Of a stretch of DNA of 31,078 nucleotides, positions 3,474 through 21,544 are shown piece after piece. Origin of the DNA: an uncultured Eubacteriales bacterium (GTDB lineage: Bacteria; Bacillota; Clostridia; Monoglobales; CAYZNM01); NCBI GenBank assembly GCA_964412285.1, contig CAYPOE010000001.1, forward strand, positions 1 through 31,078. Reading direction: 5' to 3'. The translations under genes were made by a program, and so were the position numbers. The notes beneath the pieces were generated by a model. That model ran no database searches. It was not told the DNA's origin and saw only the letters and a list, made by a program, of their open reading frames with translations. Position 1 is the stretch's first letter, and every line of letters begins with the position of its first letter.

Positions 3474-3511
3474 GTGTTCACCTGTATTTTATGTTTTTAT
3501 ATTGTATTGTA

Positions 3512-3535
3512 ACAGACAGCCCGAAGGCTGTCTGT
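3512..3535 (-). other. Intra-operon stable stem-loop with C(UUCG)G tetraloop
   Basis: Perfect 10-bp stem ACAGACAGCC/GGCTGTCTGT; the loop reads TTCG on the transcribed minus strand; no U-tail. Confidence 0.7.
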
Positions 3536-3563
3536 GGTGGGTGGATATTGGATTGGAGTTGGA

Positions 3564-4973: not shown

Positions 4974-5004
4974 ATGATGTGTTATCCTCTAATCTCTCGT
5001 AGAC

Positions 5005-5709
5005 TCACGCCCAACGGCGTTTTTCGATCTGTTGCATGGTCAGGAACAGGAAGAACGCGATGAACGACAGGTAGTAGACGACGGAGTATACGTTGAAGAT
5101 GCCGTTGACGTAGTCGTTGAAGCGTGACAGCACGTTGAGCCACTGCACGACCGCCGATACGTACTCGTTGCCTACGACCTGCATCACCCACTCTGCGAAC
5201 CATACGATGAGCAAGATCGCGAACGTCACAATCGCCGCCGTGACCTGCGACTCCGTCAGTGCCGTGATGAGTATGCCGACGGAAATCAGCGACGCGCCGA
5301 GCAAGAAGAATCCGAGGTAGAGCGTGAAGATCGTACCCGCGACGGGCGTACCGTAGACGCTCAAGATGATCGGGTAGATCAGTGTGATCACGACGTATAA
5401 CCCGAACAGCATAAGTGCGGCCAGAAACTTGCCGAGTACGATGCGTACGACGCTGATCGGCGCGGTCAGCAGCAGCTGATCCGTCTTGTTGCGGCGATCC
5501 TCCGAGAAGAGGCGCATGGTCAGCAGCGGTACGAGGAACAGGAAGATGATCGACACGTTGCCGAAGTACCCGCTCATGTCGGTGATGCCCGACGCGATGT
5601 TGATGTTGACAAAGAACAATGCCGATATAAACAGCGCAAATCCCAAACAGATGTATCCCGTGGGCAGCGCGAAGTATGCCTTAAACTCTCGCCAGCAGAT
5701 GGCTATCAT
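5005..5709 (-). CDS. ABC-2 type transporter permease (GldF-like)
   Basis: Multiple TM segments, PLLTMRLFSEDRRNKTDQLLLTAP and ALTESQVTAA motifs. Confidence 0.85.
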   Translation of the reverse strand: MIAICWREFKAYFALPTGYICLGFALFISALFFVNINIASGITDMSGYFGNVSIIFLFLVPLLTMRLFSEDRRNKTDQLLLTAPISVVRIVLGKFLAALMLFGLYVVITLIYPIILSVYGTPVAGTIFTLYLGFFLLGASLISVGILITALTESQVTAAIVTFAILLIVWFAEWVMQVVGNEYVSAVVQWLNVLSRFNDYVNGIFNVYSVVYYLSFIAFFLFLTMQQIEKRRWA

Positions 5710-6734
5710 GATGTGTGTTCCTCCCCCGCTACGACGTCGACGATCTCGGTCTGATCCCCGCCGTCCTGCGTTTCACCCGTTTCATCGACTGCAATCGAGC
5801 GTGCGCTGTCGCGCGTGACCTTGAGGAAGACTTCCTCGAGCGTCAAGGCGGCATTGTTCATCATGATGATGGGCATATCGTTCTTCGCAAGCGCGTAGAA
5901 CAGCGCGCGGCGGATGTCGTGCTGACCCGTCGTCTCAATCGTGTACTCACTCGCGCCCTCGTCGTTGCACGAACGGTGCGATACGCTCGTCACGCCCTCG
6001 ACCTTCTCGATGATGGCCGCGACGTTCTGCCGATTGCCGCAGACGCGTGCAATCACGGTGTTGCGTCCCGACAGGCTCTGCGCGAGATTGTCAGGCGTAT
6101 CCGATGCGACGAGTACGCCGTTGTTGATGATGATGACGCGTTCGCAGATCGCCGATACCTCGGGCAGGATGTGCGATGACAGGATGATCGTGCGCGTCTT
6201 GCCGAGGCTCTTGATCAAGTCGCGGATCTCGTTGATCTGCTTGGGATCGAGGCCGACCGTCGGCTCGTCAAGGATCAAGATCTCGGGATTCCCGAGCAGA
6301 CTCTGCGCGAGTCCGACGCGTTGGCGATAGCCTTTGGACAGGTTCTTGATCAGACGCTTCTGCACGTCGGTGATCTTGACGAGTTCCATGCACTCGTCGA
6401 TGTGCTTCTGGCGGATCATCTTGATGCCCTTGAGCGAGTATGCGAAATTCAGGTAGTCGCGCACGGTCATGTCGAGGTAGAGCGGCGGCTGCTCGGGCAG
6501 ATAGCCGATCTGTCGCTTGGCCTGATCGGGCTTGGACAGGATGTCGTAGCCGTTGATCGAACACGAGCCGCTCGTCGCCGACAGATACCCCGTGAGGATG
6601 TTCATCGTCGTGGTCTTGCCCGCGCCGTTGGGGCCGAGGAAGCCGAGGATCTCGCCGTGCGGCACGGTGAAGCTCACGCCGCCCACCGCGAGTTTGTTGC
6701 CGTACTTCTTGGTCAAATTTTTGACTTCAATCAT
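5706..6734 (-). CDS. ABC transporter ATP-binding protein (GldA-like)
   Basis: Walker A GPNGAGKTT, signature LSKGYRQR, Walker B ILILDEP, H-loop SSH. Confidence 0.95.
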   Translation of the reverse strand: MIEVKNLTKKYGNKLAVGGVSFTVPHGEILGFLGPNGAGKTTTMNILTGYLSATSGSCSINGYDILSKPDQAKRQIGYLPEQPPLYLDMTVRDYLNFAYSLKGIKMIRQKHIDECMELVKITDVQKRLIKNLSKGYRQRVGLAQSLLGNPEILILDEPTVGLDPKQINEIRDLIKSLGKTRTIILSSHILPEVSAICERVIIINNGVLVASDTPDNLAQSLSGRNTVIARVCGNRQNVAAIIEKVEGVTSVSHRSCNDEGASEYTIETTGQHDIRRALFYALAKNDMPIIMMNNAALTLEEVFLKVTRDSARSIAVDETGETQDGGDQTEIVDVVAGEEHTS

Positions 6735-6744
6735 TGTACAGTCC

Positions 6745-8505
6745 TCAGTTGTCAGTCTTTAGTTGTATGCCCAACTCGTCGAGCAGCTTCTGCGGTACAG
6801 GGGACGGCGACGCGACCATGAGTTCCGACGCGTTCTGCGTCTTGGGGAACGGGATGACCTCGCGGATGTTCGTCGCGCCCGCCATGAGCATGACGAGGCG
6901 GTCGAAGCCGTACGCGATGCCACCGTGCGGCGGTACGCCGTAAGACATGGCTTCCATCAGGAAGCCGAACTGCTCCTCTGCCTGTTCGGGCGTGAAGCCG
7001 AGCGTGTTGAACATCTTGCGCTGGAGTTCGGGCGTGTTGATGCGGATCGAGCCGCCTGCAACCTCGAACCCATTCAGGATCATGTCGTACGCGAGTGCGC
7101 GGACTGCGCCGGGGTTGGACTCCATGAGCGGAATATCTTCGTCGTTGGGACGCGTGAACGGGTGGTGCTTGGCGTAGTATCGGTCATCCTCTTCGCTGTA
7201 CTCCAACAGCGGGAAGTCCGTGACCCACAGGAATGCGAATCCCTCGGGGATGGCGTTCGTGATCTTGGCGACGTACTCGCGCAGCGCACCCGCCGCTACG
7301 ACGCAGGTGTCGTACTCGCCATGTGCGACGAGCAGGATCAGGTCGTTGTCGTTTGCGCCGACAGCCGCCTTGAGGCTGTCCGTAAGTTCAGGCGTGAGGA
7401 ACTTGTTGATCGACGAGCGCACGGTTTCACCGAGTGCGACCCATGCGACGCCGCCGAGTCCGTGCTGCTTGACGGGTTCGCTGAAGCTGTCGATCGTCTT
7501 GCGCGGCGTGGCGTTGCCGCCGGGTACGACGATCGCCGCGATATGCGCGGCGGTGTCGAATGCGCCGAGACCGCAGCCTTTCATGACGGCCGTCACGTCG
7601 TGCAGTTCGAGTCCGTAGCGCACGTCAGGTTTGTCCGAACCGTAGCGCCGCATTGCTTCAGCGTAGGTCATACGCGCGAACGGCGTGGGTACATCTATAT
7701 TGAGTATATCCTTAAAAAGCGATTTCACAAACGTTTCGTTGATCGCCAGTATATCTTCGATGTCGCAGAACGACATCTCTACGTCGATCTGGTCGAACTC
7801 GGGCTGCCTGTCGGCGCGCAAGTCCTCGTCGCGCAGGCAACGCGCGATCTGGAAGTAGCGGTCGAATCCCGCGTAGATCGCGAGCTGCTTGTAGAGCTGC
7901 GGCGACTGCGGCAGCGCGTAGAAGCTGCCTTGGTTCACGCGCGACGGCACGAGGTAGTCGCGCGCACCCTCGGGCGTGGACTTCATGAGCAGCGGCGTGG
8001 GGACTTCGATGAAGCCGTTGTCCGAGAAGAACTTGCGCGTATACTGCATGACATTGTGTCGCAGCATGATGCGTCCCTGTAGGTCTGGGCGGCGCAAGTC
8101 TAAATAGCGATAGCGTAGGCGCAACTCTTCGTTGGTGTCGGAGTCGGGTTCGATATAGAACGGCGGGGTCTTCGCCTTGGCGTAGAGTGTGATGTCCTCG
8201 ACGATCACCTCGATCGCACCCGTGGGCAGATCGGGGTTGACATTCTCGGGCGTACGTGCGGCAACCGTGCCGACCACGCCGACGACGAATTCGCCGCGCA
8301 GCGACACAGCTGTTTCCCATACGGCGGGCGATACGCTGTCGGGGAATGTGATCTGCACGATGCCCGTGCGGTCGCGGAGCCATACGAAGATCACGCCACC
8401 GAGGTTGCGCGTACGCGCGACGTAGCCGTTCAGCCGCACGGATTGTCCGACGTGCGTGTCGCGGAGTTCACCGCAGTAGTGCGTGCGTTTTATCAGATTA
8501 GACAT
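6745..8505 (-). CDS. aspS: Aspartate--tRNA ligase
   Basis: RTHYCGELR, KSTPEGARDYLVPSR, YALPQSPQLYKQL, RDEDLRADRQPEF and PPHGGIAYGFDRL. RNLGG (not RDHGG) suggests the discriminating type (inference). Confidence 0.97.
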   Translation of the reverse strand: MSNLIKRTHYCGELRDTHVGQSVRLNGYVARTRNLGGVIFVWLRDRTGIVQITFPDSVSPAVWETAVSLRGEFVVGVVGTVAARTPENVNPDLPTGAIEVIVEDITLYAKAKTPPFYIEPDSDTNEELRLRYRYLDLRRPDLQGRIMLRHNVMQYTRKFFSDNGFIEVPTPLLMKSTPEGARDYLVPSRVNQGSFYALPQSPQLYKQLAIYAGFDRYFQIARCLRDEDLRADRQPEFDQIDVEMSFCDIEDILAINETFVKSLFKDILNIDVPTPFARMTYAEAMRRYGSDKPDVRYGLELHDVTAVMKGCGLGAFDTAAHIAAIVVPGGNATPRKTIDSFSEPVKQHGLGGVAWVALGETVRSSINKFLTPELTDSLKAAVGANDNDLILLVAHGEYDTCVVAAGALREYVAKITNAIPEGFAFLWVTDFPLLEYSEEDDRYYAKHHPFTRPNDEDIPLMESNPGAVRALAYDMILNGFEVAGGSIRINTPELQRKMFNTLGFTPEQAEEQFGFLMEAMSYGVPPHGGIAYGFDRLVMLMAGATNIREVIPFPKTQNASELMVASPSPVPQKLLDELGIQLKTDN

Positions 8506-8531
8506 ATATATTCACCTTTGATCAAGTTTGA

Positions 8532-9767
8532 TCAAGAATCGAGACGCATCGTGGTCTCTTCTCTGGTCTGCATGTCGCGTACCTTGGCAACGCCGCTGGC
8601 GAGTTCGTCCTCGCCAATCACGACAACGCGCTGGGCGCGGAGTCGGTCGGCCTGCTTCATCTGCGCCTTGACGCTGCGACGCATCGTATCGTACTCGACG
8701 TACGTGCCGCCGTCGCGGAGCTTCTGCGCGAGCTTGAATGCCGCGTCGTTGCCTTCGTCGCCGATGCCGATCACGTAATACGCGGGCGCGGGCGACGGAT
8801 GCACTGTCACGCCGTCATGCTCTATGGCCATCGCGATACGCTCGATGCCGATGCCGAAGCCGCATGACGGCGTCGGATCACCGCCGAGTGTCTCGACGAG
8901 GTAATCGTACCGCCCGCCGCCACCGAGTACCACGTCGCTGTCGCCGATGCGCTTGACGAACTCGAACACCGTGGTCGAGTAGTAGTCGAGGCCGCGCACC
9001 AGACCGTCATCCTCGACGTAGGCGATGCCGATGGCATCGAGATACCGCTTGGTATTCGCGTAGTGCGCGTTACACGCCTCGCACTGGTGGTAGAGGATGC
9101 GCGGCGCGTCGGCGACGATGCCCTGGCACTGCGGCGACTTGCAGTCGAGGATGCGCATGGGGTTGCGCGTCAGGCGGTCGCGGCAGGTGTTGCAGAGCTG
9201 CTCGGCCTTGGGTTCGAGGTAAGCGCGCAGCTTTACATTATATTCGGCGCGACAGGTCGGACATCCGATGCTGCCGAGGTGTAAAGTCATGCCCTTGATA
9301 CCGCAGCGGTTGATGAAGTCTACGCCCGCCGCGGCGACTTCCGCGTCGGCAGACGCATCTTTGGCGCAGACGTGTTCGACGCCGAATGTATAGTATTCAC
9401 GCAGTCGTCCGGCGGCGGGTTTTTCGTAGCGGTAGCATGTTGTAAAGTAGTAGAGCTTTACAGGTGTGTGCTGCCCCAACGAGTGCTGCAAGAACGAACG
9501 CATCGCACCTGCCGTGCCTTCGGGACGCAGTGTGATGGATCGTCCACCCTTGTCGTCAAACGTGTACATCTCTTTCTGCACGACGTCGGTCGTATCGCCG
9601 ACCCCGCGTGAGAACAGCTCGGTGTACTCGAACACAGGCAGCCGGATCTCGCGGTAGCCGTACGCGTCGCAGACGGCGCGCATGTTGTCCTCGATGAAAT
9701 ACCAAAGCGGCAGATCCGACGGCAATACGTCGTGTGTACCGCGAATTGAAGCGATCTTATTTGACAT
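8532..9767 (-). CDS. hisS: Histidine--tRNA ligase
   Basis: RGTHD, KEMYTF, LRPEGTA, LVRGLDYY, GGGRYD and GFGIGIER motifs. Start reset to ATG 9767, which has an upstream AGGGGA SD (411 aa). Confidence 0.95.
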   Translation of the reverse strand: MSNKIASIRGTHDVLPSDLPLWYFIEDNMRAVCDAYGYREIRLPVFEYTELFSRGVGDTTDVVQKEMYTFDDKGGRSITLRPEGTAGAMRSFLQHSLGQHTPVKLYYFTTCYRYEKPAAGRLREYYTFGVEHVCAKDASADAEVAAAGVDFINRCGIKGMTLHLGSIGCPTCRAEYNVKLRAYLEPKAEQLCNTCRDRLTRNPMRILDCKSPQCQGIVADAPRILYHQCEACNAHYANTKRYLDAIGIAYVEDDGLVRGLDYYSTTVFEFVKRIGDSDVVLGGGGRYDYLVETLGGDPTPSCGFGIGIERIAMAIEHDGVTVHPSPAPAYYVIGIGDEGNDAAFKLAQKLRDGGTYVEYDTMRRSVKAQMKQADRLRAQRVVVIGEDELASGVAKVRDMQTREETTMRLDS

Positions 9768-9778
9768 AATATATTCCC

Positions 9779-9910
9779 CTGTAGGGGCGGGGCTCTGCTC
9801 CGCCCGTGAATTCACGCAACGGTTGTGTCGATCCACGGTGGCGTTTCGTCGTCCGTTCATTTGCACGACGTTTGCGTGGATCCACGGGCGGCGAAACGCC
9901 GCCCCTACAG
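9779..9910. repeat. GTAG-type REP doublet (REPIN-like) with a third degenerate internal copy
   Basis: Left unit CTGTAGGGGCGG-N9-CCGCCCG; the right unit reverse-complemented is CTGTAGGGGCGG-CGTTTCG-CCGCCCG. The inverted repeat extends inward (TGAATTCACGCAA vs TTGCGTGGATCCA). 9840-9856 matches the reverse complement of 9884-9900 with 2 mismatches. Confidence 0.7.
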
Positions 9911-10477
9911 CAATTGTTCTAATAGAATCAGCAATTCTTCGCGCCCTGTAGACTTCTCGGCCGAGAACGGCAGTGCGTCCTCGACTTCGAGTACGTCGCA
10001 GATCACGCGCACATAGTCGGGTACTTTGGTTACGGGCAGCTTATCAGTCTTGTTCGCAACGACGATGTGCCGCTTGCCTGATGCGCGGATCCACTCGGCC
10101 ATCTGCACATCCTGCGCCGTAGGCTTGTGCCGCGCGTCGACGATTTGCAGAATCGCGCAGAGTTGTTCGCGACGGTCGAGGTAGGCGTTGATCATATCCG
10201 CCCAGCGTCCCTGTTCGGACTTGCCCGCCTCGGCGTAACCGTAGCCGGGGAGGTCGGCGAGCATGATGGCTTCGTCGATGTTATAGAAGTTGATGTGCCG
10301 CGTCTTGCCCGGCACACTCGACGTACGCGCAAGGTTCTTGCGCCGTACGAGCGCGTTGATGACCGACGACTTGCCGACGTTGCTGCGTCCGGCCATTGCG
10401 ACCTCGGGGATCTCGAGCGTCGGGTATTGTTTCGGCGCAGTCGCGCTGATGATGAATTGTGTGTTCTCTACGCGCAT
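9905..10477 (-). CDS. engB: Ribosome biogenesis GTP-binding protein YihA/YsxC
   Basis: G1 GRSNVGKSS, PGKT, DLPGYGYA, G4 NKTD. Confidence 0.95.
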   Translation of the reverse strand: MRVENTQFIISATAPKQYPTLEIPEVAMAGRSNVGKSSVINALVRRKNLARTSSVPGKTRHINFYNIDEAIMLADLPGYGYAEAGKSEQGRWADMINAYLDRREQLCAILQIVDARHKPTAQDVQMAEWIRASGKRHIVVANKTDKLPVTKVPDYVRVICDVLEVEDALPFSAEKSTGREELLILLEQLL

Positions 10478-10478
10478 A

Positions 10479-12857
<2,379 letters not shown>

Positions 12858-13051: not shown

Positions 13052-14227
13052 ATGACCATATCCAACCTATCCGCACTCTCTCGCACTGCGTTTGCCTGTG
13101 CGTGCGGCAAGACGCATTGCACCGACATACAGCACATCGTGATACGACGCGGCGCATTGGACGCACTGCCCGACATCGCCGCGTCGTTTGCATCGGGCAC
13201 CTGTTTCGTCGTCGCAGACAGCATTACATACGCCGTAGCGGGACAGTCCGTCGCAGACAGGCTCACCGCTGCGGGTCACAACGTGCGTACGCACGTGTTC
13301 AACACGCCAGACCTCGCCCACCCACTTGTACCCAACGAAGCCGCACTCGGGCGGCTCGTCGTCGAGATGCCCGTGGATACGTCGCTGATTGTAGCCGTAG
13401 GGTCGGGTTCGCTGGGCGATGCTGCGCGGATGCTCAGCGCCAAGACCAAAGTACCCTACATCATCGTCGCGACCGCGCCATCGATGGACGGTTACGCGTC
13501 GACGGTGTCGCCGCTCATCATCGACGGATGCAAGGTCACGTACGAGGCTGTGTATCCGTATGCCATCGTCGCCGACGTCGACATACTCTGCACCGCGCCC
13601 GACATGATGCTGCAAGCGGGATTCGGCGACATCATCGGCAAGTATACGGCGCTCACCGACTGGGCATTGTCCCACGCGGTCAACGGCGAATACATCTGCC
13701 CGCACGTGATCGGTATGGTGCAAAATGCGATCCGGCAGTGCGCGGATCATGCCGACGGCCTCGCCAAGCGCGACGCATCGGCGGTCGCAGCCGTGATGGA
13801 AGGCCTCGTGCTGTCGGGACTCTGCATGGGCATGATCGGCAACTCGCGCCCCGCATCGGGCGCGGAGCATCATCTGTCGCATTATTGGGAAGTCGACGCT
13901 TTGGCGAATCACAAGCCCCACGCGCTGCACGGCAACGCCGTCGGTGTGGCGACGCTGGTATCCGCGACGCTGTACGACATCAGCGGCGTCGCGCGGCAGT
14001 ACAACCTGTCGCTGCCGACGGTGGGCGAAATCCGCACGCTGCTGCAACGCGCGGGCTCTGCGACGACGCCGTCGGCATTGGGCATCGACCGCGAACTGTT
14101 CCGCAGGAGCGTGCTGCACGCGCTCGAGATCCGACCGCGCTACACGATTCTGCTGCATCTGCATAATGGCGGCACACTCGAACGCTGCGCCGACGCAGTC
14201 ACACGCATGTTCTACGACGAGGTGTGA
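13052..14227 (+). CDS. egsA: sn-glycerol-1-phosphate dehydrogenase (AraM/EgsA family)
   Basis: AVGSGSLGD, TAPSMDGYAS, AGFGDIIGK, RPASGAEHHLSH and LHGNAVG motifs. Start reset to ATG 13052 behind GGAGGA (391 aa). Confidence 0.85.
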   Translation: MTISNLSALSRTAFACACGKTHCTDIQHIVIRRGALDALPDIAASFASGTCFVVADSITYAVAGQSVADRLTAAGHNVRTHVFNTPDLAHPLVPNEAALGRLVVEMPVDTSLIVAVGSGSLGDAARMLSAKTKVPYIIVATAPSMDGYASTVSPLIIDGCKVTYEAVYPYAIVADVDILCTAPDMMLQAGFGDIIGKYTALTDWALSHAVNGEYICPHVIGMVQNAIRQCADHADGLAKRDASAVAAVMEGLVLSGLCMGMIGNSRPASGAEHHLSHYWEVDALANHKPHALHGNAVGVATLVSATLYDISGVARQYNLSLPTVGEIRTLLQRAGSATTPSALGIDRELFRRSVLHALEIRPRYTILLHLHNGGTLERCADAVTRMFYDEV

Positions 14228-16270: not shown

Positions 16271-16320
16271 TCCGAAGGATGGTGATGCCCTTGGATGTTT
16301 AGCACCTCCTTCGGATTTTT
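16271..16320 (+). promoter_or_regulatory. Toxin 5' leader hairpin containing an anti-SD, followed by T5
   Basis: TCCGAAGGA-T-GGTG (16271-16284) pairs with CACC-TCCTTCGGA (16303-16315). CACCTCCTT is also the exact complement of the downstream SD AAGGAGGTG (16326-16334). Confidence 0.65.
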
Positions 16321-16339
16321 GGTGAAAGGAGGTGGCAGC

Positions 16340-16465
16340 ATGAGTGTGGTGGACGTTATTAAGTTGATAGCTGTTTTCGCATGTATGCACTGGTTTGAGA
16401 TAGTGTATATCGCAGGCTATGTAGTCGACTTAATCAAAAACAACCGCCCCTACACCAAAGGTTAA
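16340..16465 (+). CDS. Putative type I TA small membrane toxin, 41 aa (MSVVDVIKLIAVFACMHWFEIVYIAGYVVDLIKNNRPYTKG)
   Basis: Very strong SD GAAAGGAGGTG, hydrophobic body with a basic C-terminus, own promoter, convergent antisense promoter. Absent from the ORF track because it is short. Confidence 0.65.
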   Translation: MSVVDVIKLIAVFACMHWFEIVYIAGYVVDLIKNNRPYTKG

Positions 16466-16475
16466 CGGTTGTTTT
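16436..16475. terminator. Bidirectional terminator-like hairpin; likely antitoxin RNA terminator
   Basis: AAAACAACCG (16437-16446) / CGGTTGTTTT (16466-16475), 10-bp stem; A5 at 16436-16440 gives a U-run on the minus strand. Confidence 0.7.
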
Positions 16476-16540
16476 ATTGGCAATAAAATTTAATTCTTTC
16501 AAACCGTGAAACCTAATCATAAAAGATTGCGAAACTCTGG

Positions 16541-16564
16541 CGAGAAACGTTCCAGCGTTTCTCG
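16541..16564. terminator. Hairpin that may end the toxin mRNA (+) and form the 5' stem of the antitoxin (-)
   Basis: CGAGAAACG-TTCCAG-CGTTTCTCG, perfect 9-bp stem, followed on + by TTACATATTT. Confidence 0.55.
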
Positions 16565-16574
16565 TTACATATTT

Positions 16575-16603
16575 AGTATAGCCCATTGTGGCGCATTTGT
16601 CAA
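16575..16603 (-). promoter_or_regulatory. Antisense promoter
   Basis: On the minus strand: TTGACA (16603-16598), 17 nt, TATACT (16580-16575). No plausible protein start follows it before the terminator. Confidence 0.8.
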
Positions 16604-16674
16604 TCAGGTGATTCGCGTTTTCGAGACATGATGGCGTTCGACACTCTTTTGTATATTTTTCAGCAACGCGCATC

Positions 16675-16703
16675 TTGACAACGTTCGTGCAATATGATAT
16701 ACT
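16675..16703 (+). promoter_or_regulatory. Promoter of the leader-MFS-iorAB-paaK operon
   Basis: TTGACA (16675-16680), 17 nt, TATACT (16698-16703) with extended TG (16695-16696). Confidence 0.85.
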
Positions 16704-16745
16704 ACCACCGTAAGTGAAGCTATACGTTACGCTCGGAGGCAGAAC

Positions 16746-16835
16746 ATGTATCGTCGTATCGTGAACTTTACAGCGTGGTCTTGGCGAGGCTTTGTTGATA
16801 CAACAAGGTCGGTTTGCCATGCTCCGGCGGTATGA
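16746..16835 (+). CDS. Trp-containing attenuator leader peptide, 29 aa (MYRRIVNFTAWSWRGFVDTTRSVCHAPAV)
   Basis: SD GGAGG at 16735-16739; TGG-TCT-TGG at 16776-16784; lies between the promoter and an intrinsic terminator. Confidence 0.75.
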   Translation: MYRRIVNFTAWSWRGFVDTTRSVCHAPAV

Positions 16836-16878
16836 TGACATGTGATAGATAGATCAGTCGATTCATCACACGATAATC

Positions 16879-16916
16879 AACCTCCCGACTCATGCAAATG
16901 GGCCGGGAGGTTTTTT
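16879..16916 (+). terminator. Attenuator terminator in the 5' leader
   Basis: AACCTCCCG (16879-16887) / CGGGAGGTT (16904-16912), inner stem with GCAA loop, T6 tail; located upstream of the first structural gene. Confidence 0.88.
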
Positions 16917-16958
16917 ATATTCTAAATTTTTATTATTTTATTTTTGGAGGAACGGAAC

Positions 16959-18128
16959 ATGGAAAGGCAAGGGGAAACACAAGCTATGAAGGTGCTGATC
17001 GCCGGGGCGGCGCTACAGCTGTTCTTGGGCGTCATCTACGTCTGGAGCGTGTTCGTAATGCCCGTCGCACAGTACTTCAATCGCGAACCCGGCGAAATCA
17101 AGCTCACCTCGTCGTTTATGCTGAGCTTCTTCGTACTCGGCATCCTCGCAGGCGGTAAGCTGCAACAGCGCATCACGACGCAAAAGACCGTACTCGCGGG
17201 CGGCACACTGCTCGCGCTCGGCATGTTGATCAGTGCGTTCCTGCCCGTCGGACAGGGTCTCTTCATCTACCTGACCTACGGCGTCATGGGCGGATTCGGC
17301 GTGGGCATGGGCTACAACGCCATCATCACGACGGCGCAGCGCAACTTCCCTAAGAACCGCGGCCTCGCGACAGGCGTCAGCGTATGCGCGTTCGGCTTCT
17401 CGACCGTCATCTTCGCGCCGCTCGTCGAGTACTTATGCAAGACCGTCGGCGTGCAGTACACATTCGTGATCCTCGCCGCCGCATACATCGTCGTCGTACT
17501 CGCACTGTTCTCGTTCATCAAGATGCCCGAAAGCAGCGGCGCGACGGCACAGGCCGCGTTCAAAGGCAAGCAGTATACTGTGAGCGAGATCCTGCGCACC
17601 AAAGAGTTCTACTGCATCACGCTGTCACTCATGCTCGGCACCTCGGTCTACTTCATCCTAAACCCATCGTTCAAGACGCTCGCAGCTGAACGCGGTCTGT
17701 CCGACGGCATCGCGACGGTACTCGTCATGCTGACCGGCGTAGCCAACGCACTCGGTCGACTCGGCGTACCGCTGCTGTCCGACAAGATCGGTCGCGAACG
17801 TGCGGCATTCGTCACGATTGCCGTCACGGCGATCTGCGCGATTGCGCTGATTTTCGTCGGCGGCACCCCGCTCATCTTCATCATCGCGGTCATCGCGTTC
17901 TGCTACGGCGGATATTCGGGCATCTACCCCGTCATCACAGGCGACTACTTCGGCCTCGCCAACGTCGGCTCCAACTACGGCGCAGTCATGGTCGGATTCG
18001 CAGCTTCGGCGCTGCTGTTCCCGATCGTGATGAACATGCTGTCCGACATGACGGTCAAGTTCGTCGTACTCGCAGTCGGCGCAGTGATTGGTGCGGCGCT
18101 CACGCTGCTACTCAAGCGAAAGGGTTAA
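16959..18128 (+). CDS. OFA (oxalate:formate antiporter)-family MFS carboxylate transporter
   Basis: LQLFLGVIYVWSVF, GGFGVGMGY, RGLATGVSVCAFG, NALGR and NVGSNYG motifs. Start reset to ATG 16959 behind GGAGG. Confidence 0.85.
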   Translation: MERQGETQAMKVLIAGAALQLFLGVIYVWSVFVMPVAQYFNREPGEIKLTSSFMLSFFVLGILAGGKLQQRITTQKTVLAGGTLLALGMLISAFLPVGQGLFIYLTYGVMGGFGVGMGYNAIITTAQRNFPKNRGLATGVSVCAFGFSTVIFAPLVEYLCKTVGVQYTFVILAAAYIVVVLALFSFIKMPESSGATAQAAFKGKQYTVSEILRTKEFYCITLSLMLGTSVYFILNPSFKTLAAERGLSDGIATVLVMLTGVANALGRLGVPLLSDKIGRERAAFVTIAVTAICAIALIFVGGTPLIFIIAVIAFCYGGYSGIYPVITGDYFGLANVGSNYGAVMVGFAASALLFPIVMNMLSDMTVKFVVLAVGAVIGAALTLLLKRKG

Positions 18129-18132
18129 TCAC

Positions 18133-19776
18133 ATGAAAGCACTGTTCATGGGCAACGAAGCCATCGCGTTCGGCGCACTCGACTCCGGCGTGGCCGTGGT
18201 CACGGGATACCCCGGCACGCCGTCGAGCGAGATCCTCGACACGGTGGCCAAGCACAACGCCGAGGGGCGCGTCTACGTCGAGTGGTCGGTCAACGAGAAG
18301 GCCGCACTCGAAGTCGCGGCGGGCGCGGCGTACAGCGGCGCGCGTACGTTGGTCACGATGAAGCAGGTCGGACTCAACGTCGCATCCGACCCGCTGATGA
18401 GCCTCGCGTACGTCGGCGTCAAAGGCGGCATGGTCATCGTCGTGGCCGACGATCCCGGCCCCATCTCGTCGCAGACCGAGCAGGATACGCGCCACTGGGC
18501 GGCGTTCGCCAAGCTGCCCGTATTCGATCCGTCCACCGTGGAAGAAGCGTATTCTATCGTAGGAAAGGCGTTCGAGTACAGCGAACGCCACCGCACGCCC
18601 GTGCTGCTGCGTCCGACGACGCGCGTCTGCCACGGCTACGCGACCATGGAGCGCGCACCTGCGGCCAACGCGGTACCACCCGTGCGCGGCGACGGCTTCG
18701 TCAAAGACAGCAAGTGGGTCATCTTCCCGCGCCTCGCGTACTTGAGCCATCTCGAGATGGAGAAGCGCAACGTCGCGCTGTGCGACGAATTTTCCGACGA
18801 TCCACTCAATGTGCTGACCACCGTCGGCACGGCCGACAGCGCACAGTCGCGCATCGGCGTCGCGGTCGGCGGCGTAAGTTATGCCTATGCGATGGAAACC
18901 CTCGGCACCTTCGAGCGCGGCGTACAACTGCTCAAAGTCACCACGCCGCACCCGTTCCCCGAACGGTTGGCCGTAGACTTCCTCAAGGGCGTAGACGAAG
19001 TGCTCGTCGTCGAGGAACTCGATCCCGTGATCGAGCGACAACTCGTCTACCTCTGCGGCAAGCACAGGCTGAACGTCGCGATCAAGGGCAAACTCACGAA
19101 CGATATGCCCAACGCGGGAGAATATACCGTCGACGGCGTCAAGCGTGCGCTGTACGATTTCGCGGGTATCGCGTACGACGCGCCGCAACTGCCCGAGTCC
19201 ATCCCACTCGCGGTACGCCCGCCCGTACTCTGCAAAGGTTGCCCGCACCACGCGTCGTTCAGCGCGGTCAAGCAGGCGATGGAGGGCAAGTCTGCCGTAT
19301 TCTGCGGCGACATCGGCTGCTACACGCTCGGCAACGCGCATCCGCTCAACATGGTCGATACCTGCCTCTGTATGGGCGCGGGGATCACCGTCGCGCAGGG
19401 ATTACAGCGCACGAACGAGAATACCACGCACTTCGCGTTCATCGGCGACGGCACGTTCTTTCATTCGGGGATCACGGGCGTGATCAACGCGCTGTACAAC
19501 CACACGGATATTGTCGTCGTGATCCTCGACAACTCCACGACAGCCATGACCGGCGGTCAGCCGCACCCGGGTACGGGTCGCACGATGATGGGTGAGAGTA
19601 GTCCACGCATCAGCATCCGCAAGGTTCTGGAGGCCATCGGCGTGCCGCATATCGAAGTATGCAATCCGTATGACAAGTCGGCGGTCGACTGCGTCAAACG
19701 CATGGCAGAACTCGGCGGCGTACGCGCGATCCTCTTTGAAGCGCCGTGTGTGTCCATCAAGGGGGTGAAGGCATGA
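18133..19776 (+). CDS. iorA: Indolepyruvate:ferredoxin oxidoreductase alpha subunit, lacking the C-terminal ferredoxin domain
   Basis: MGNEAIA, GYPGTPSSE, EWSVNEK, MKQVGLNVASD, QTEQD, RPPVLCKGCPH, GDIGCY and TPP motif GDGTFFHSG..DNSTTAMTG. Start reset to ATG 18133 (547 aa). Confidence 0.92.
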   Translation: MKALFMGNEAIAFGALDSGVAVVTGYPGTPSSEILDTVAKHNAEGRVYVEWSVNEKAALEVAAGAAYSGARTLVTMKQVGLNVASDPLMSLAYVGVKGGMVIVVADDPGPISSQTEQDTRHWAAFAKLPVFDPSTVEEAYSIVGKAFEYSERHRTPVLLRPTTRVCHGYATMERAPAANAVPPVRGDGFVKDSKWVIFPRLAYLSHLEMEKRNVALCDEFSDDPLNVLTTVGTADSAQSRIGVAVGGVSYAYAMETLGTFERGVQLLKVTTPHPFPERLAVDFLKGVDEVLVVEELDPVIERQLVYLCGKHRLNVAIKGKLTNDMPNAGEYTVDGVKRALYDFAGIAYDAPQLPESIPLAVRPPVLCKGCPHHASFSAVKQAMEGKSAVFCGDIGCYTLGNAHPLNMVDTCLCMGAGITVAQGLQRTNENTTHFAFIGDGTFFHSGITGVINALYNHTDIVVVILDNSTTAMTGGQPHPGTGRTMMGESSPRISIRKVLEAIGVPHIEVCNPYDKSAVDCVKRMAELGGVRAILFEAPCVSIKGVKA

Positions 19777-20342
19777 GCTGCACGAACTTTAACTGCATTA
19801 TCGCAGGCGTAGGCGGTCAAGGCACGGTACTTGCGTCGCGGCTGATTTCGGCGGCGGCGACCGCGCGCGGGATGCACGTCGTGAGTGCAGAGACCATCGG
19901 TATGGCACAGCGCGGCGGCTCGGTACTCAGCCACATCCGCATCGGAGATGGTGCATACGCGCCGCTCATCGGCGAAGGTACCGCCGATCTGCTCATCGCG
20001 TTCGAGCCGTGCGAGGGTGCGCGCGCGCTGCGGTATCTCAAGCGCGGCGGCGTCGCGATTGTATGCGCCGATCCCGTCGCACCCGCGAGTGGCGCGTACG
20101 ACGTTGCGCCGATCCTCGACTACATCGCGGCGTATGCCGATACGCGCGTGATCGAGCCGTCGGCGATTTATAAAGAGTGCGGTTCACGGCGCGTACTCAA
20201 CGTCGCACTGCTCGGCGCGGCACTCGCCGCAGGTGTGCTGCCCGTAACCGCAGACGAGGTCGCCGATGCACTCGGCGGCATCTTTACAGACGATAAATTA
20301 GAGATGAACTTGAAGGCGCTGCGCCTTGGAGGTATGATATGA
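19773..20342 (+). CDS. iorB: Indolepyruvate:ferredoxin oxidoreductase beta subunit
   Basis: AGVGGQG, AETIGMAQRGGSV and EPCE motifs; ATGA overlap with the iorA stop. Confidence 0.92.
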   Translation: MSCTNFNCIIAGVGGQGTVLASRLISAAATARGMHVVSAETIGMAQRGGSVLSHIRIGDGAYAPLIGEGTADLLIAFEPCEGARALRYLKRGGVAIVCADPVAPASGAYDVAPILDYIAAYADTRVIEPSAIYKECGSRRVLNVALLGAALAAGVLPVTADEVADALGGIFTDDKLEMNLKALRLGGMI

Positions 20343-21544
20343 TTGAGAAATTGAAGCAAGCCATCGACTACGCGATGCGGGGGTGGTTCTATCAGAAGCG
20401 GTTCGCGAACATCGGCCCGATCCACAGCATGGACGACTTCGCGGCACTGCCGTTCACAGATAAAGATGATCTGCGCGACGCGTATCCGCTGGGACTGTCC
20501 GCCGTCGACGAGCGCGACGTCGTGCGCATCCATTCGTCGTCGGGTACGACGGGTACGCCCGTCATCATACCCTACACGCAGCGCGACGTCGACGACTGGG
20601 CGATCATGTTCAAGCGATGCTACGAGTTCGCAGGACTCACGCCGCTCGATCGCGTCCACGTCACGCCGGGCTACGGCTTGTGGACGGCGGGCATCGGCTT
20701 CCAGAACGGCGCGGAACTGCTCGGCTGCATGGTCATACCCATGGGGCCGGGGAATACCGATAAGCAACTCAAGATGATGATGGACTTGAAGTCGACCGTG
20801 CTCTGCGCGACGTCGTCGTACGCACTGCTGCTCACCGAAGAGATCACCAAACGCCGCATCAAGGACAAGATTCATCTAACCAAGGGCATCATCGGTTCGG
20901 AGCGTTGGGGCGAGAAGATGCGCAAACGCATCGCGGGTGAACTCGGCGTGCAGCTCTACGACATCTACGGGCTGACCGAGGTGTACGGCCCGGGCATCGG
21001 CATCAGCTGCGAACACGAGTGCGGGATGCACTACTGGGACGACTACCTGTACTTCGAGATCATCAATCCCAAGACGGGGCAGCTCGTACCCGAGGGCGAG
21101 ATCGGCGAACTCGTGATCACGACGCTGCGCAAAGAGGCCGCGCCGCTGATCCGCTATCGCACGCACGACCTCACGCGGTTCATCCCGGGCGGCTGTGCGT
21201 GCGGGCGCAGGTATCCGCGCATCGACACCATCATCGGGCGTTCGGATGATATGGTCAAGGTTAAGGGTGTGATGATCTACCCGAGCCGTGTCGATGAAGT
21301 GCTGTCCAAGATCGACGGCGTGTCGAGTGAGTATCAGGTCATGATCGACCACCTCGAGGGCAAGGACGTGATGACGATCTTCTTCGAGACCGAGCATCTC
21401 GAACGCAAGGCCGCGCTGCAGGACGAGGTCAAGCACGCAGTCAAGCAGTCGTTGGGACTCACCATCGTACCTAAGGCCGTCGACGTCGGCGAACTCCCGC
21501 GCAGCGAGAAAAAGACCACGCGCGTATTTGATAATCGATATTAA
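20339..21544 (+). CDS. paaK: Phenylacetate--CoA ligase family (aryl-acetate-CoA ligase)
   Basis: LPFTDKDDLRD, HSSSGTTG, YGLWTAG, DIYGLTE, PLIRYRT and GRSDDM motifs. Substrate is not determinable from sequence. Confidence 0.88.
   Translation: MIEKLKQAIDYAMRGWFYQKRFANIGPIHSMDDFAALPFTDKDDLRDAYPLGLSAVDERDVVRIHSSSGTTGTPVIIPYTQRDVDDWAIMFKRCYEFAGLTPLDRVHVTPGYGLWTAGIGFQNGAELLGCMVIPMGPGNTDKQLKMMMDLKSTVLCATSSYALLLTEEITKRRIKDKIHLTKGIIGSERWGEKMRKRIAGELGVQLYDIYGLTEVYGPGIGISCEHECGMHYWDDYLYFEIINPKTGQLVPEGEIGELVITTLRKEAAPLIRYRTHDLTRFIPGGCACGRRYPRIDTIIGRSDDMVKVKGVMIYPSRVDEVLSKIDGVSSEYQVMIDHLEGKDVMTIFFETEHLERKAALQDEVKHAVKQSLGLTIVPKAVDVGELPRSEKKTTRVFDNRY

What the first reader, a model, noticed from the sequence alone, without database searches (positions are those of the whole stretch)
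16675..16916. Unannotated tryptophan-sensing leader-peptide attenuator upstream of MFS-iorAB-paaK
Seen in sequence: consensus promoter, SD, a 29-aa ORF with W-S-W, then a strong terminator before the first gene. Alternative pairings found by eye: (i) 16772-16779, containing the first Trp codon, pairs with 16816-16823 and encloses a hairpin at 16790-16808; (ii) 16825-16836 (CGGCGGTATGAT), which spans the leader stop codon, pairs with 16876-16887 (ATCAACCTCCCG), the terminator's left arm, and encloses a hairpin at 16841-16870. Established knowledge: this is the layout of E. coli trp-type ribosome-mediated attenuation. Inference: a ribosome reaching the stop blocks the antiterminator (OFF), whereas stalling at the Trp codons frees it (ON). 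Bacillota more usually sense Trp through T-boxes or TRAP, and here the target is not a trp operon.
Basis: partly seen in the sequence, partly recalled or inferred. Interest (0 to 1): 0.88.

Follow-up and report, generated by a model that had tools for sequence, protein, structure and literature searches.

The report
Trp leader peptide replacing a T-box
In front of an operon that probably turns scavenged indole-acetate into tryptophan, this gut bacterium has a tiny gene with two tryptophan codons plus a transcription stop signal, exactly where its relatives have a tryptophan-sensing T-box RNA; it therefore most likely senses tryptophan through a stalling ribosome, but how the RNA switch works, and even in which direction, is not settled.

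Summary
The promoter, Shine-Dalgarno site, 29-codon ORF (W-S-W at codons 11-13) and a -22 kcal/mol terminator with a U6 tail are all present at the stated coordinates. No Rfam family matches, T-box and Trp_leader included.

The strongest new evidence is comparative. At least 11 orthologous MFS-iorAB(-paaK) loci carry T-box leaders with a UGG (Trp) specifier, including the three closest (IorA 67-68% identical, same gene order). This genome has no detectable T-box, TRAP, trpA, trpC, trpD or trpE.

A second case lies in the same genome. An Ile-rich leader peptide (10 of 26 codons) plus terminator precedes an acyl-CoA synthetase whose orthologs carry Ile or Val T-boxes. Trp sensing by a leader peptide that displaced a T-box is therefore likely.

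Its antiterminator is no better than chance. The best complement of the terminator's left arm is the Trp-codon segment itself, which in a one-ribosome model gives the opposite logic.

No homologous leader or RNA data exist, so covariation cannot be tested. This scan has already noted Trp leaders on ior operons in other DNA (Syntrophales, Desulfobacterales).

The parts
16675..16703 (+). Sigma-70-type promoter: TTGACA, 17-nt spacer, extended -10 TGaTATACT. The transcript probably starts near 16710.
   Evidence: 11 of 12 matches, TG present; sequence.
16714..16771 (+). 5' hairpin 'H0' (-16.3 kcal/mol). It partly sequesters the SD and AUG, and it is the co-transcriptional MFE until about 16830 has been made.
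   Evidence: element energies and co-transcriptional MFE series.
16735..16739 (+). Shine-Dalgarno GGAGG, six bases before the leader ATG.
   Evidence: Sequence.
16746..16835 (+). Leader ORF of 29 codons plus TGA. Trp codons at 16776-16778 (W11) and 16782-16784 (W13).
   Evidence: No Pfam match. P(two TGG within 2 codons) = 0.029 in shuffles.
16744..16843 (+). Default long hairpin (-42 kcal/mol). It contains A (16744-16762) paired with A' (16827-16843), B (16772-16779, holding W11) paired with B' (16816-16823), and apical hairpin C (16788-16810).
16773..16799 (+). Trp-codon segment. It is the best complement of the terminator's left arm: 19 bp with 16876-16895 at -19.8 kcal/mol, or 14 bp with 16881-16895 when hairpin C persists. 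This is alternative antiterminator 'AT2'.
   Evidence: (p = 0.0035 for the segment, about 0.04 for the whole leader).
16814..16836 (+). Classical 'segment 2', spanning the leader stop codon (16833-16835).
   Evidence: The duplex is -14.1 kcal/mol and not above chance.
16841..16870 (+). Hairpin D (-6 kcal/mol) between the leader ORF and the terminator.
16879..16918 (+). Intrinsic terminator: 14-bp stem (9 bp lower stem, 1-nt bulge, 5 bp upper stem, loop GCAA) at -22.2 kcal/mol, then U6.
16959..18128 (+). MFS transporter, first gene of the regulated operon.
   Evidence: Pfam MFS_1. Orthologs at 53-65% identity.
18133..20342 (+). iorA (18133-19776; 547 aa, lacks the ferredoxin insert of typical IorA) and iorB (19746-20342).
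   Evidence: TIGR03336 IOR_alpha, 631 bits against a cut-off of 651.
20339..21544 (+). PaaK-like AMP-forming aryl-acetate-CoA ligase.
   Evidence: TIGR02155, 378 bits, below the cut-off of 646.

Best explanation
The region is a leader-peptide (ribosome-mediated) transcription attenuator. It makes read-through from the 16675 promoter into MFS-iorA-iorB-paaK depend on how fast a ribosome can read two Trp codons. It has taken the place of the Trp-specific T-box found on orthologous operons.

Most likely logic, inferred from the regulatory logic of the orthologs:
- Untranslated RNA, or a ribosome that runs to the stop codon, leaves the terminator free to form. The operon is OFF.
- When charged tRNA-Trp is scarce, the lead ribosome stalls at W11/W13 and masks 16761-16794, while a second ribosome queued at the start codon masks 16731-16761.
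- Segment 16814-16836 then loses both of its partners, the W11 segment and the ORF start.
- That segment pairs with 16876-16897 around hairpin D, blocking the terminator. The operon is ON.

The operon then imports an indole acid, activates it to the CoA thioester and reductively carboxylates it to indolepyruvate for transamination to Trp. The organism has no detectable canonical trp pathway.

Shown: the anatomy, the alternative pairings, T-box (UGG) control of the orthologs, the absence of a T-box, TRAP and trp genes here, and a parallel Ile case.
Inferred: translation of the ORF, stalling, the need for a second ribosome, the direction of the switch and the direction of the pathway.
For: (1) Anatomy: strong promoter, SD and ATG, W-S-W, terminator, and no promoter between terminator and gene.

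(2) Orthologs: T-box leaders with UGG in the specifier position stand before the three closest operons, L081, L082/L083 and L084/L085 (IorA 67-68% identical, same MFS-iorA-iorB-paaK order).
- The same holds for L009, L012, L014, L030, L036 and L047 (E 1e-8 to 1e-19).
- L018 has tandem Trp and Phe T-boxes. L020 has a UGG T-box, then a TrpB-like enzyme, the MFS gene and IOR.
- These T-boxes closely resemble the trpE T-box of the genus mate G001.

(3) This genome has no T-box hit, no TRAP, and no TrpA, IGPS, TrpE or TrpD. Completeness is 90.5%.

(4) Parallel case in the same genome, on contig C21.
- A consensus promoter, an SD and a 26-codon ORF with 10 Ile codons are followed by a -27 kcal/mol terminator.
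- These precede an HTH-cupin-acyl-CoA synthetase resembling MbcS.
- Its orthologs in the order carry T-boxes with AUC (Ile) or GUA (Val) specifiers.

(5) With both ribosomes in place, the 16814-16836: 16876-97 antiterminator gives a barrier to terminator formation of 6.8-7.7 kcal/mol. The same crude model gives 6.5 for the proven E. coli trp antiterminator and 2.9 for its OFF states.

(6) Switches between T-box and leader peptide, including His leader peptides replacing T-boxes in bacilli, are documented (PMC2965389).
Against: - No homolog of the leader was found. That covers 151 genomes of the order, 400 of the class, GTDB representative contigs, JGI metagenomes and 5.8 billion proteins (nearest IorA 68% identical). 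Neither ORF conservation nor covariation can be tested.
- The classical antiterminator is not above chance (p = 0.24).
- It needs the ORF start masked. With a single stalled ribosome the barrier is only 2.5 kcal/mol.
- With a ribosome at the stop codon, the Trp-codon segment pairs with the left arm (barrier 10.8). A Trp-replete cell would then read through unless a trailing ribosome covers that segment.
- The Trp cluster has a 3% chance probability given the G/U-rich composition.
- The Ile leader on C21 shows no clear switch in the same model.
- The operon's proteins are not significantly Trp-poor.
- No RNA data exist.
Confidence: 0.5

Rival explanations
1. It is a ribosome-mediated attenuator with reversed logic.
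- The Trp-codon segment (16773-16799) is itself the 5' strand of the antiterminator.
- It is normally held by 16800-16823 and by the long hairpin.
- A ribosome that has read through and sits on the last codons or the stop (masking 16818-16846) frees it to pair with the terminator's left arm. The operon is ON.
- A ribosome stalled on the Trp codons masks it, and untranslated RNA hides it. The operon is OFF.
- The operon would then be expressed only when Trp is sufficient, which is catabolic, tna-like logic. Alternatively, the direction would depend on ribosome load.
For: - The Trp-codon segment is the best complement of the left arm: 19 bp at -19.8 kcal/mol, pairing 19 of 20 left-arm bases. The p-value is 0.0035 for the segment and 0.035-0.047 for the whole leader.
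- The barrier to terminator formation is 10.8 kcal/mol with a ribosome at the stop, against 2.5 with a single ribosome stalled at W11 or W13.
- The E. coli control gives the opposite pattern.
- All three states are coherent without assuming a second ribosome: untranslated OFF, stalled OFF, translated through ON.
Against: - Every orthologous operon with a recognisable leader uses a T-box, which can only induce on Trp starvation.
- An AMP-forming PaaK-type ligase and an importer-like MFS point to assimilation, not degradation (established biochemistry).
- An organism without a trp pathway gains nothing by shutting off Trp salvage when starved.
- The pairing spans about 100 nt and must form across a ribosome.
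- The palindromic CAUG cores in the W11 segment, in 16816-16823 and in the left arm make promiscuous pairing likely.
- Significance at the whole-leader level is marginal.
Confidence: 0.2
2. The leader is not a Trp-codon sensor. The ORF and its two TGG codons are by-products of a G/U-rich structured leader. The terminator would then be controlled by something else (an RNA-binding protein, an unknown ligand, general translation coupling), or it would be a constitutive partial terminator.
For: - This is a single sequence with no conservation or covariation.
- W-x-W arises in 3% of shuffles, and two or more in-frame TGG in 15%.
- No clean two-state switch emerges from folding.
- The SD and AUG are partly sequestered in a -16 kcal/mol 5' hairpin.
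Against: - The amino acid singled out by the ORF is the one specified by the T-boxes of the orthologs. That match was expected in advance, with no multiple testing over 20 residues.
- The same genome shows a far less ambiguous Ile case (10 of 26 codons) on a gene whose orthologs have Ile T-boxes.
- The SD GGAGG, 6-nt spacer and ATG form a good start site.
- No known riboswitch or protein-binding leader matches, and there is no TRAP.
Confidence: 0.2
3. It is an independent small gene or small RNA with its own promoter and terminator. The MFS operon would then be transcribed from an unrecognised promoter in the AT-rich 40 nt after the terminator.
For: - The unit from promoter to terminator is self-contained, about 210 nt.
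- Attenuator-derived small RNAs with functions in trans are known (rnTrpL in Sinorhizobium; PMC6614838, listed).
Against: - No promoter-like site lies between 16918 and 16959.
- The peptide has no family match.
- The position coincides with that of the T-box in the orthologs.
Confidence: 0.07
4. The nascent peptide is a TnaC-like sensor of free tryptophan. The peptide and Trp together would arrest the ribosome at or near the stop codon, prolonging the state that frees the Trp-codon segment for antitermination.
For: - The peptide contains W, D and P in that order (W13, D18, P27), loosely reminiscent of TnaC (from memory).
- The ribosome-at-stop state is the most antiterminated one in the model.
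Against: - The spacing differs from TnaC (W12-D16-P24, with Pro at the last codon; from memory). Here two more codons follow the Pro.
- There is no homology and no conservation.
- It predicts induction by Trp, which contradicts the T-box logic of the orthologs.
Confidence: 0.03

Closest known systems
E. coli-type trp operon leader (trpL; Rfam Trp_leader RF00513), and leader-peptide attenuators with long tails such as leuL
   Same: - Promoter, short translated ORF with clustered cognate codons near codon 10-13, alternative hairpins and an intrinsic terminator before the first gene.
- About 43 nt separate the leader stop codon from the terminator, as in trpL.
- An antiterminator strand spans the stop codon.
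   Different: - No sequence or structure match to RF00513.
- The target is not a trp biosynthesis operon.
- 16 codons follow the Trp codons.
- The ORF start pairs with the ORF end, so a stalled ribosome alone does not free 'segment 2'.
- The Trp-codon segment is complementary to the terminator's left arm. In the classical layout segments 1 and 3 resemble each other instead.
- Ribosome-at-stop is the most antiterminated state in the model, the opposite of the E. coli control.
Trp-specific T-box leaders (Rfam RF00230) on orthologous MFS-iorAB-paaK operons and on trpE of the genus mate
   Same: - Same position, between promoter and MFS gene.
- Same presumed signal (tRNA-Trp charging).
- Same output (read-through of an intrinsic terminator).
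   Different: - There is no Stem I, no specifier loop and no T-box sequence here. Rfam finds nothing even at E <= 10.
- Sensing would be through a translating ribosome, not direct tRNA binding.
Histidine leader peptides that replace T-boxes upstream of hisS paralogs and hisZ in bacilli (Naville and Gautheret 2010, PMC2965389)
   Same: - A 'regular' amino-acid leader peptide in Bacillota stands where relatives use a T-box.
- It looks like an independent, convergent origin.
   Different: - A different amino acid, a different lineage (a gut Clostridia-type MAG) and a different kind of target (salvage from an organic acid).
- The His case is supported by conservation across species; this one is not.
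Trp-rich leader peptides before iorAB-transporter operons in Syntrophales and Desulfobacterales
   Same: The same pairing of a Trp-codon leader plus terminator with an indolepyruvate oxidoreductase, ligase and transporter operon, and the same inferred purpose (Trp from indole acids under starvation).
   Different: - Those have 3-4 consecutive Trp codons, short ORFs and conservation across relatives, according to those notes (not checked here).
- They lie in a different phylum with different transporters.
- This one has only W-S-W, a long ORF and no relatives.
Translation-coupled attenuators (E. coli pyrBI and pyrE) and the tna operon leader TnaC
   Same: Only for the reversed-logic rival: expression requires a ribosome that has progressed to the end of the leader ORF.
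   Different: - In pyrBI the ribosome physically blocks the terminator. Here the ORF ends 43 nt upstream, so an RNA antiterminator would be needed.
- TnaC acts on Rho and senses free Trp.
- No homology to either.

Membership tests
Leader-peptide (ribosome-mediated) transcription attenuator, trp type | A short ORF with a usable ribosome-binding site, inside the 5' leader and downstream of a promoter | tested here: met
   GGAGG, 6-nt spacer, ATG, 29 codons. The promoter matches 11 of 12 positions and has TG.
Leader-peptide (ribosome-mediated) transcription attenuator, trp type | Clustered codons for the regulating amino acid | tested here: met
   W11 and W13. Chance is 0.029 in dinucleotide shuffles. 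Trp is the residue specified by the orthologs' T-boxes.
Leader-peptide (ribosome-mediated) transcription attenuator, trp type | An intrinsic terminator between the ORF and the first structural gene | tested here: met
   A -22.2 kcal/mol hairpin at 16879-16912 plus U6.
Leader-peptide (ribosome-mediated) transcription attenuator, trp type | An antiterminator, exclusive with the terminator, that forms when the ribosome stalls at the regulatory codons and not when it reaches the stop | tested here: inconclusive
   - 16814-36 : 16876-97 (18 bp) forms only if the ORF start is also masked. Its barrier is 6.8-7.7 kcal/mol, against 6.5 in the E. coli control.
- A single stalled ribosome gives 2.5.
- A ribosome at the stop gives 10.8, through a different antiterminator.
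Leader-peptide (ribosome-mediated) transcription attenuator, trp type | ORF, regulatory codons and stems conserved or covarying in orthologous leaders | tested here: inconclusive
   No homologous leader was found in any collection searched. The orthologs carry T-boxes or unrelated leaders.
Leader-peptide (ribosome-mediated) transcription attenuator, trp type | Read-through responds to tRNA-Trp charging | not testable with these tools
   Only DNA runs hold the sequence.
Rfam Trp_leader (RF00513) | A match to the covariance model | tested here: not met
   No hit at E <= 10 in 16300-17100.
T-box leader (RF00230) | Stem I with a specifier loop, and the conserved T-box sequence in the antiterminator | tested here: not met
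   No hit at E <= 10 in the region, and none in the whole genome at E <= 0.001. The orthologs do match.
TRAP-mediated attenuation (Bacillus mtrB) | A TRAP protein gene in the genome, and 9-11 (G/U)AG repeats in the leader | tested here: not met
   PF02081 was not found in the genome, while the B. subtilis control was positive. No such repeat array is visible in the sequence (by inspection).
TnaC-type arrest peptide | Conserved W-x3-D-x7-P with Pro as the last codon before the stop, and Rho-dependent termination downstream | tested here: not met
   The peptide has W13-x4-D18-x8-P27, then A, V and the stop. The TnaC consensus is quoted from memory. An intrinsic terminator follows.

The most novel reading that the evidence does not exclude
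The attenuator works backwards or two ways. The two Trp codons lie inside the antiterminator's own 5' strand, so a ribosome stalled on them enforces termination, and only a ribosome that has read through to the end of the ORF permits read-through.

This would be an amino-acid-sufficiency checkpoint built from the parts of a classical attenuator. Alternatively, it would be a switch whose sign depends on how many ribosomes load the leader.
Probability: 0.2. Interest if true: 0.8.

Novelty: new variant of a known kind. Interest (0 to 1): 0.55.

Why it matters
If confirmed, this would be a clear example in a Clostridia-type gut bacterium of a T-box displaced by a leader-peptide attenuator for the same signal. 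A second, Ile-specific example lies in the same genome. Together they bear on how readily these two tRNA-charging sensors interchange.

Whichever mechanism holds here, the T-box evidence says that MFS-iorAB-paaK operons in this group are switched on by Trp starvation. That argues they make tryptophan from scavenged indole-3-acetate rather than produce indole-acetate. The point matters for reading ior genes in gut metagenomes, where they are usually scored as producers of indole and aryl acids.

The same holds for Phe-, Tyr-, Ile- and Val-specific T-boxes found on paaK, transporter and acyl-CoA synthetase genes in the order.

The unusual wiring, with the Trp-codon segment complementary to the terminator arm, makes this a good test case for how ribosome number and position set the sign of an attenuator.

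Tried and rejected
- Rfam scan at permissive threshold over 16300-17100: only sub-threshold terminator-like hits. No T-box, Trp_leader or riboswitch.
- A degenerate T-box remnant: rejected.
- TRAP: no gene found.
- Homologs of the leader:
  - None in the family (2 genomes), the order (151) or the class (400, only 24-nt matches to the U-rich tail).
  - None upstream of 13 genome and about 40 metagenome MFS orthologs, which carry T-boxes or unrelated short leaders. One 29-aa ORF with two non-adjacent Trp in L049 has no terminator.
- RNA evidence: no RNA run holds the sequence. Four DNA runs from one gut study were laid, and the leader is covered only by 100%-identical low-depth contigs, so no strain variation is available.
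- Thermodynamic folding of the full leader under ribosome masks: the terminator always wins (probability above 0.95). As for E. coli, this is uninformative.
- Trp depletion of the operon's proteins: 0.59% against a genome mean of 0.87%, not significant.
- Other leader peptides in the genome:
  - trpS follows an aminotransferase gene and has no leader.
  - The second acyl-CoA synthetase copy (C199) and the second ior cluster (C52) have none.
  - A Cys-rich mini-ORF on C133 lies in the L10 ribosomal-protein leader.
- The Ile leader on C21 shows no switch in the barrier model.
- The minus-strand 135-aa ORF at 16434-16841 and the 27-aa ORF at 16842-16925 have no family match.
- Literature: no paper links a T-box or a leader peptide with indolepyruvate oxidoreductase.
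Full report
**1. What is in the sequence.**

The stated features are real.
- A promoter with 11 of 12 consensus positions and an extended -10 lies at 16675-16703.
- GGAGG at 16735-16739 stands six bases before the ATG at 16746.
- The ORF 16746-16835 encodes 29 residues, with Trp codons at 16776-16778 and 16782-16784.
- A 14-bp hairpin at 16879-16912 (-22.2 kcal/mol) is followed by U6. The simple terminator scan missed it because of a one-base bulge. My own genome-wide scan found it.
- The MFS gene starts at 16959 behind its own GGAGG, with no promoter-like site between terminator and gene. The operon therefore depends on read-through.
- Downstream lie an MFS transporter, iorA, iorB and a PaaK-like ligase.
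- The leader is more structured than shuffles (z = -3.8).
- No Rfam family matches, even at E <= 10.

**2. The default fold.**

The MFE is one long hairpin, 16744-16843 (-42 kcal/mol), followed by hairpin D (16841-16870) and the terminator.
The ORF start (16744-16762) pairs with 16827-16843, across the stop codon (17 bp, -20.5 kcal/mol).
- A 5' hairpin (16714-16771, -16.3 kcal/mol) forms first during transcription. It partly covers the SD and AUG.

**3. Comparative evidence, which carries the main weight.**

MFS orthologs at 53-65% identity were collected from genome and metagenome contigs, mostly Oscillospiraceae-like MAGs and termite-gut samples.

Many have T-box leaders directly upstream, with UGG aligned to the specifier position (AAA-UGG-purine).
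- L009, L012, L014, L030, L036 and L047 match at E 1e-8 to 1e-19.
- L018 has Trp and Phe T-boxes in tandem.
- L020 has a UGG T-box followed by a TrpB-like enzyme, the MFS gene and IOR.

IorA has no relative above 68% identity among 5.8 billion proteins. The three nearest share its unusual short form without the ferredoxin insert.
- Their contigs carry the same MFS-iorA-iorB-paaK order, a divergent aminotransferase and a UGG T-box.
- These T-boxes resemble the one before trpE-trpG-trpD in the genus mate G001.

A T-box can only induce when its tRNA is uncharged (established knowledge). The orthologous operons are therefore Trp-starvation genes. This fits assimilation of indole-3-acetate: import, AMP-forming CoA ligation, reductive carboxylation by IOR, then transamination. 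That route is long known for rumen bacteria and methanogens (from my own knowledge).

The window's genome (90.5% complete) differs.
- It has no T-box at E <= 0.001. Relatives in the order have 0 to 7.
- It has no TRAP.
- It has no TrpA, IGPS, TrpE or TrpD.

**4. A second swap in the same genome.**

I scanned for SD-ATG mini-ORFs followed by a terminator and then a long ORF. Two clean, amino-acid-biased cases emerged: this one and one on contig C21.

The C21 case has these parts.
- A consensus extended -10 promoter and an SD.
- A 26-codon ORF with 10 Ile codons.
- A -27 kcal/mol terminator.
- An HTH-cupin-acyl-CoA synthetase whose best named relative is the methylbutyryl-CoA synthetase MbcS.

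Orthologs of that gene occur in 137 of 151 genomes of the order. Seven sit directly behind T-boxes, four with an AUC (Ile) specifier and three with GUA (Val).

So in two loci this genome has a cognate-codon leader peptide where relatives have a T-box. Such switches are documented, including His leader peptides replacing T-boxes in bacilli (PMC2965389).

Not every such gene here has a leader. The second ior cluster (C52), the second synthetase copy (C199) and trpS do not.

**5. How the switch might work.**

Full-length folding under ribosome masks always yields the terminator. This is expected, because antiterminators act kinetically.

I therefore did two things.
- I folded the RNA up to 16897, before the right arm exists, with 28-nt ribosome masks.
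- I estimated with findpath the barrier for the terminator to displace what had formed.

| State | Barrier (kcal/mol) | What holds the left arm |
|---|---|---|
| One ribosome stalled at W11 or W13 | 2.5 | Only the SD touches it; the ORF start re-pairs with 16827-16843 |
| Ribosome at the stop codon | 10.8 | The freed Trp-codon segment 16773-16789 pairs with 16881-16895 |
| Ribosome at the stop plus a trailing ribosome on the Trp codons | 2.5 | Nothing stable |

The same pipeline on the E. coli trp leader, fetched from NC_000913, gives these barriers.

| E. coli trp leader state | Barrier (kcal/mol) |
|---|---|
| No ribosome | 2.9 |
| Stall at W10 | 2.9 |
| Stall at W11 | 6.5 |
| Ribosome at the stop | 2.9 |

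The pipeline is crude but recovers the classical logic in that control.

Shuffle tests bear on which pairing is real.
- The Trp-codon segment's complementarity to the left arm (-19.8 kcal/mol, 19 bp) is unusual: p = 0.0035 for the segment and about 0.04 for the whole leader.
- The complementarity of the classical segment (-14.1 kcal/mol) is not unusual: p = 0.24.

Hence two self-consistent models remain.
- Classical: starvation turns the operon ON. This needs frequent initiation, with a queued second ribosome when starved and a trailing ribosome when replete. The 27-nt distance between the AUG and codon 10 just allows a queued ribosome.
- Reversed: read-through occurs only when the ORF is translated to its end. 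This needs one ribosome only.

The Ile leader on C21 shows no switch in this model. The model therefore cannot be trusted to decide.

**6. Weighing the models.**

- The T-box logic of the orthologs, the AMP-forming ligase and the missing trp pathway favour starvation induction.
- The RNA complementarity favours the reverse.
- I put the classical model at 0.5 and the reversed model at 0.2.
- The remaining 0.3 goes to readings in which the ORF is incidental, independent or TnaC-like.
- The Trp cluster alone has a 3% chance probability given the composition.
- No homologous leader, strain variation or RNA data exist. The usual tests by conservation and covariation could not be applied.

**7. Comparison and novelty.**

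- In kind, this is a leader-peptide attenuator.
- It is not a member of Rfam Trp_leader or T-box.
- It differs from trpL in four ways: its target, its long ORF, the pairing of ORF start with ORF end, and the complementarity of the regulatory-codon segment to the terminator.
- Replacement of a T-box by a leader peptide in Bacillota is known for histidine (PMC2965389).
- Trp leaders on ior operons were noted earlier in this scan in Syntrophales and Desulfobacterales. Those are AI notes that I did not check.
- I class it as a new variant of a known kind, of moderate interest, with an unresolved and possibly unusual logic.

Noticed in passing
G000 contig C21, minus strand, about 14000-14210 (locus L077 about 5020-5210): A second candidate leader-peptide attenuator. 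It has a consensus extended -10 promoter, an SD, a 26-codon ORF (MVIAVISIISIISIIIRDNVILRCAE, 10 Ile) and a -27 kcal/mol terminator. These precede an HTH-cupin-acyl-CoA synthetase resembling MbcS. Orthologs in the order carry Ile (AUC) or Val (GUA) T-boxes. As in the window's leader, the ORF start pairs with the ORF end. No clear antiterminator was found.
   Followed up: partly
Loci L115-L141 (relatives in the same order): T-boxes in this order control a set of 'organic acid to amino acid' genes. Phe (UUC) T-boxes precede paaK. Tyr (UAC) T-boxes precede a sodium:solute symporter and an acyl-CoA synthetase. Ile and Val T-boxes precede the HTH-cupin-acyl-CoA synthetase. The usual leuA, ilvB, thrS and valS cases are also present. 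The specifiers for L122-L141 were read by eye from the sequence around the conserved GAA and GAG motifs.
   Followed up: partly
window 16304-16476: This stretch matches many other contigs of the same gut metagenomes at 80-90% identity and much higher depth (up to 85x against 3-5x for the leader), especially the hairpin at 16435-16474. It is a multi-copy or widely shared element.
   Followed up: no
window 18133-19776: The IorA here (547 aa) and its three nearest relatives (538 aa) lack the 4Fe-4S ferredoxin insert (PF00037) found in nearly all other IorA proteins (about 595 aa). It scores just below the TIGR03336 cut-off. The genome has a second, full-length iorA (592 aa) on contig C52.
   Followed up: partly
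G000 contig C52, minus strand, about 1600-11090: A second aromatic cluster: leuS, a sodium:solute symporter, paaK, iorA (592 aa), iorB, paaK and an ACT-domain protein. It has only a hairpin and no leader peptide between leuS and the symporter. In relatives the symporter and paaK orthologs carry Tyr and Phe T-boxes.
   Followed up: partly
G000 contig C36, about 4240-6440 (locus L089 299-2496): trpS lies 28 nt after a class I/II aminotransferase gene and appears co-transcribed with it from a TTGCAA-17-TGGTATAAT promoter, without any attenuator. The aminotransferase could supply the last step, indolepyruvate to Trp.
   Followed up: no
L018 651-1564; L020 1216-4173: One ortholog has tandem Trp and Phe T-boxes before the MFS gene. 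Another places a TrpB-like (TrpB2-type) PLP enzyme between the Trp T-box and MFS-iorAB.
   Followed up: partly
window 16538-16603: A terminator-like hairpin on the + strand (16538-16567) and a consensus promoter on the - strand (16603-16575) lie just upstream of the leader's promoter. They belong to the neighbouring small locus, not to the attenuator.
   Followed up: no
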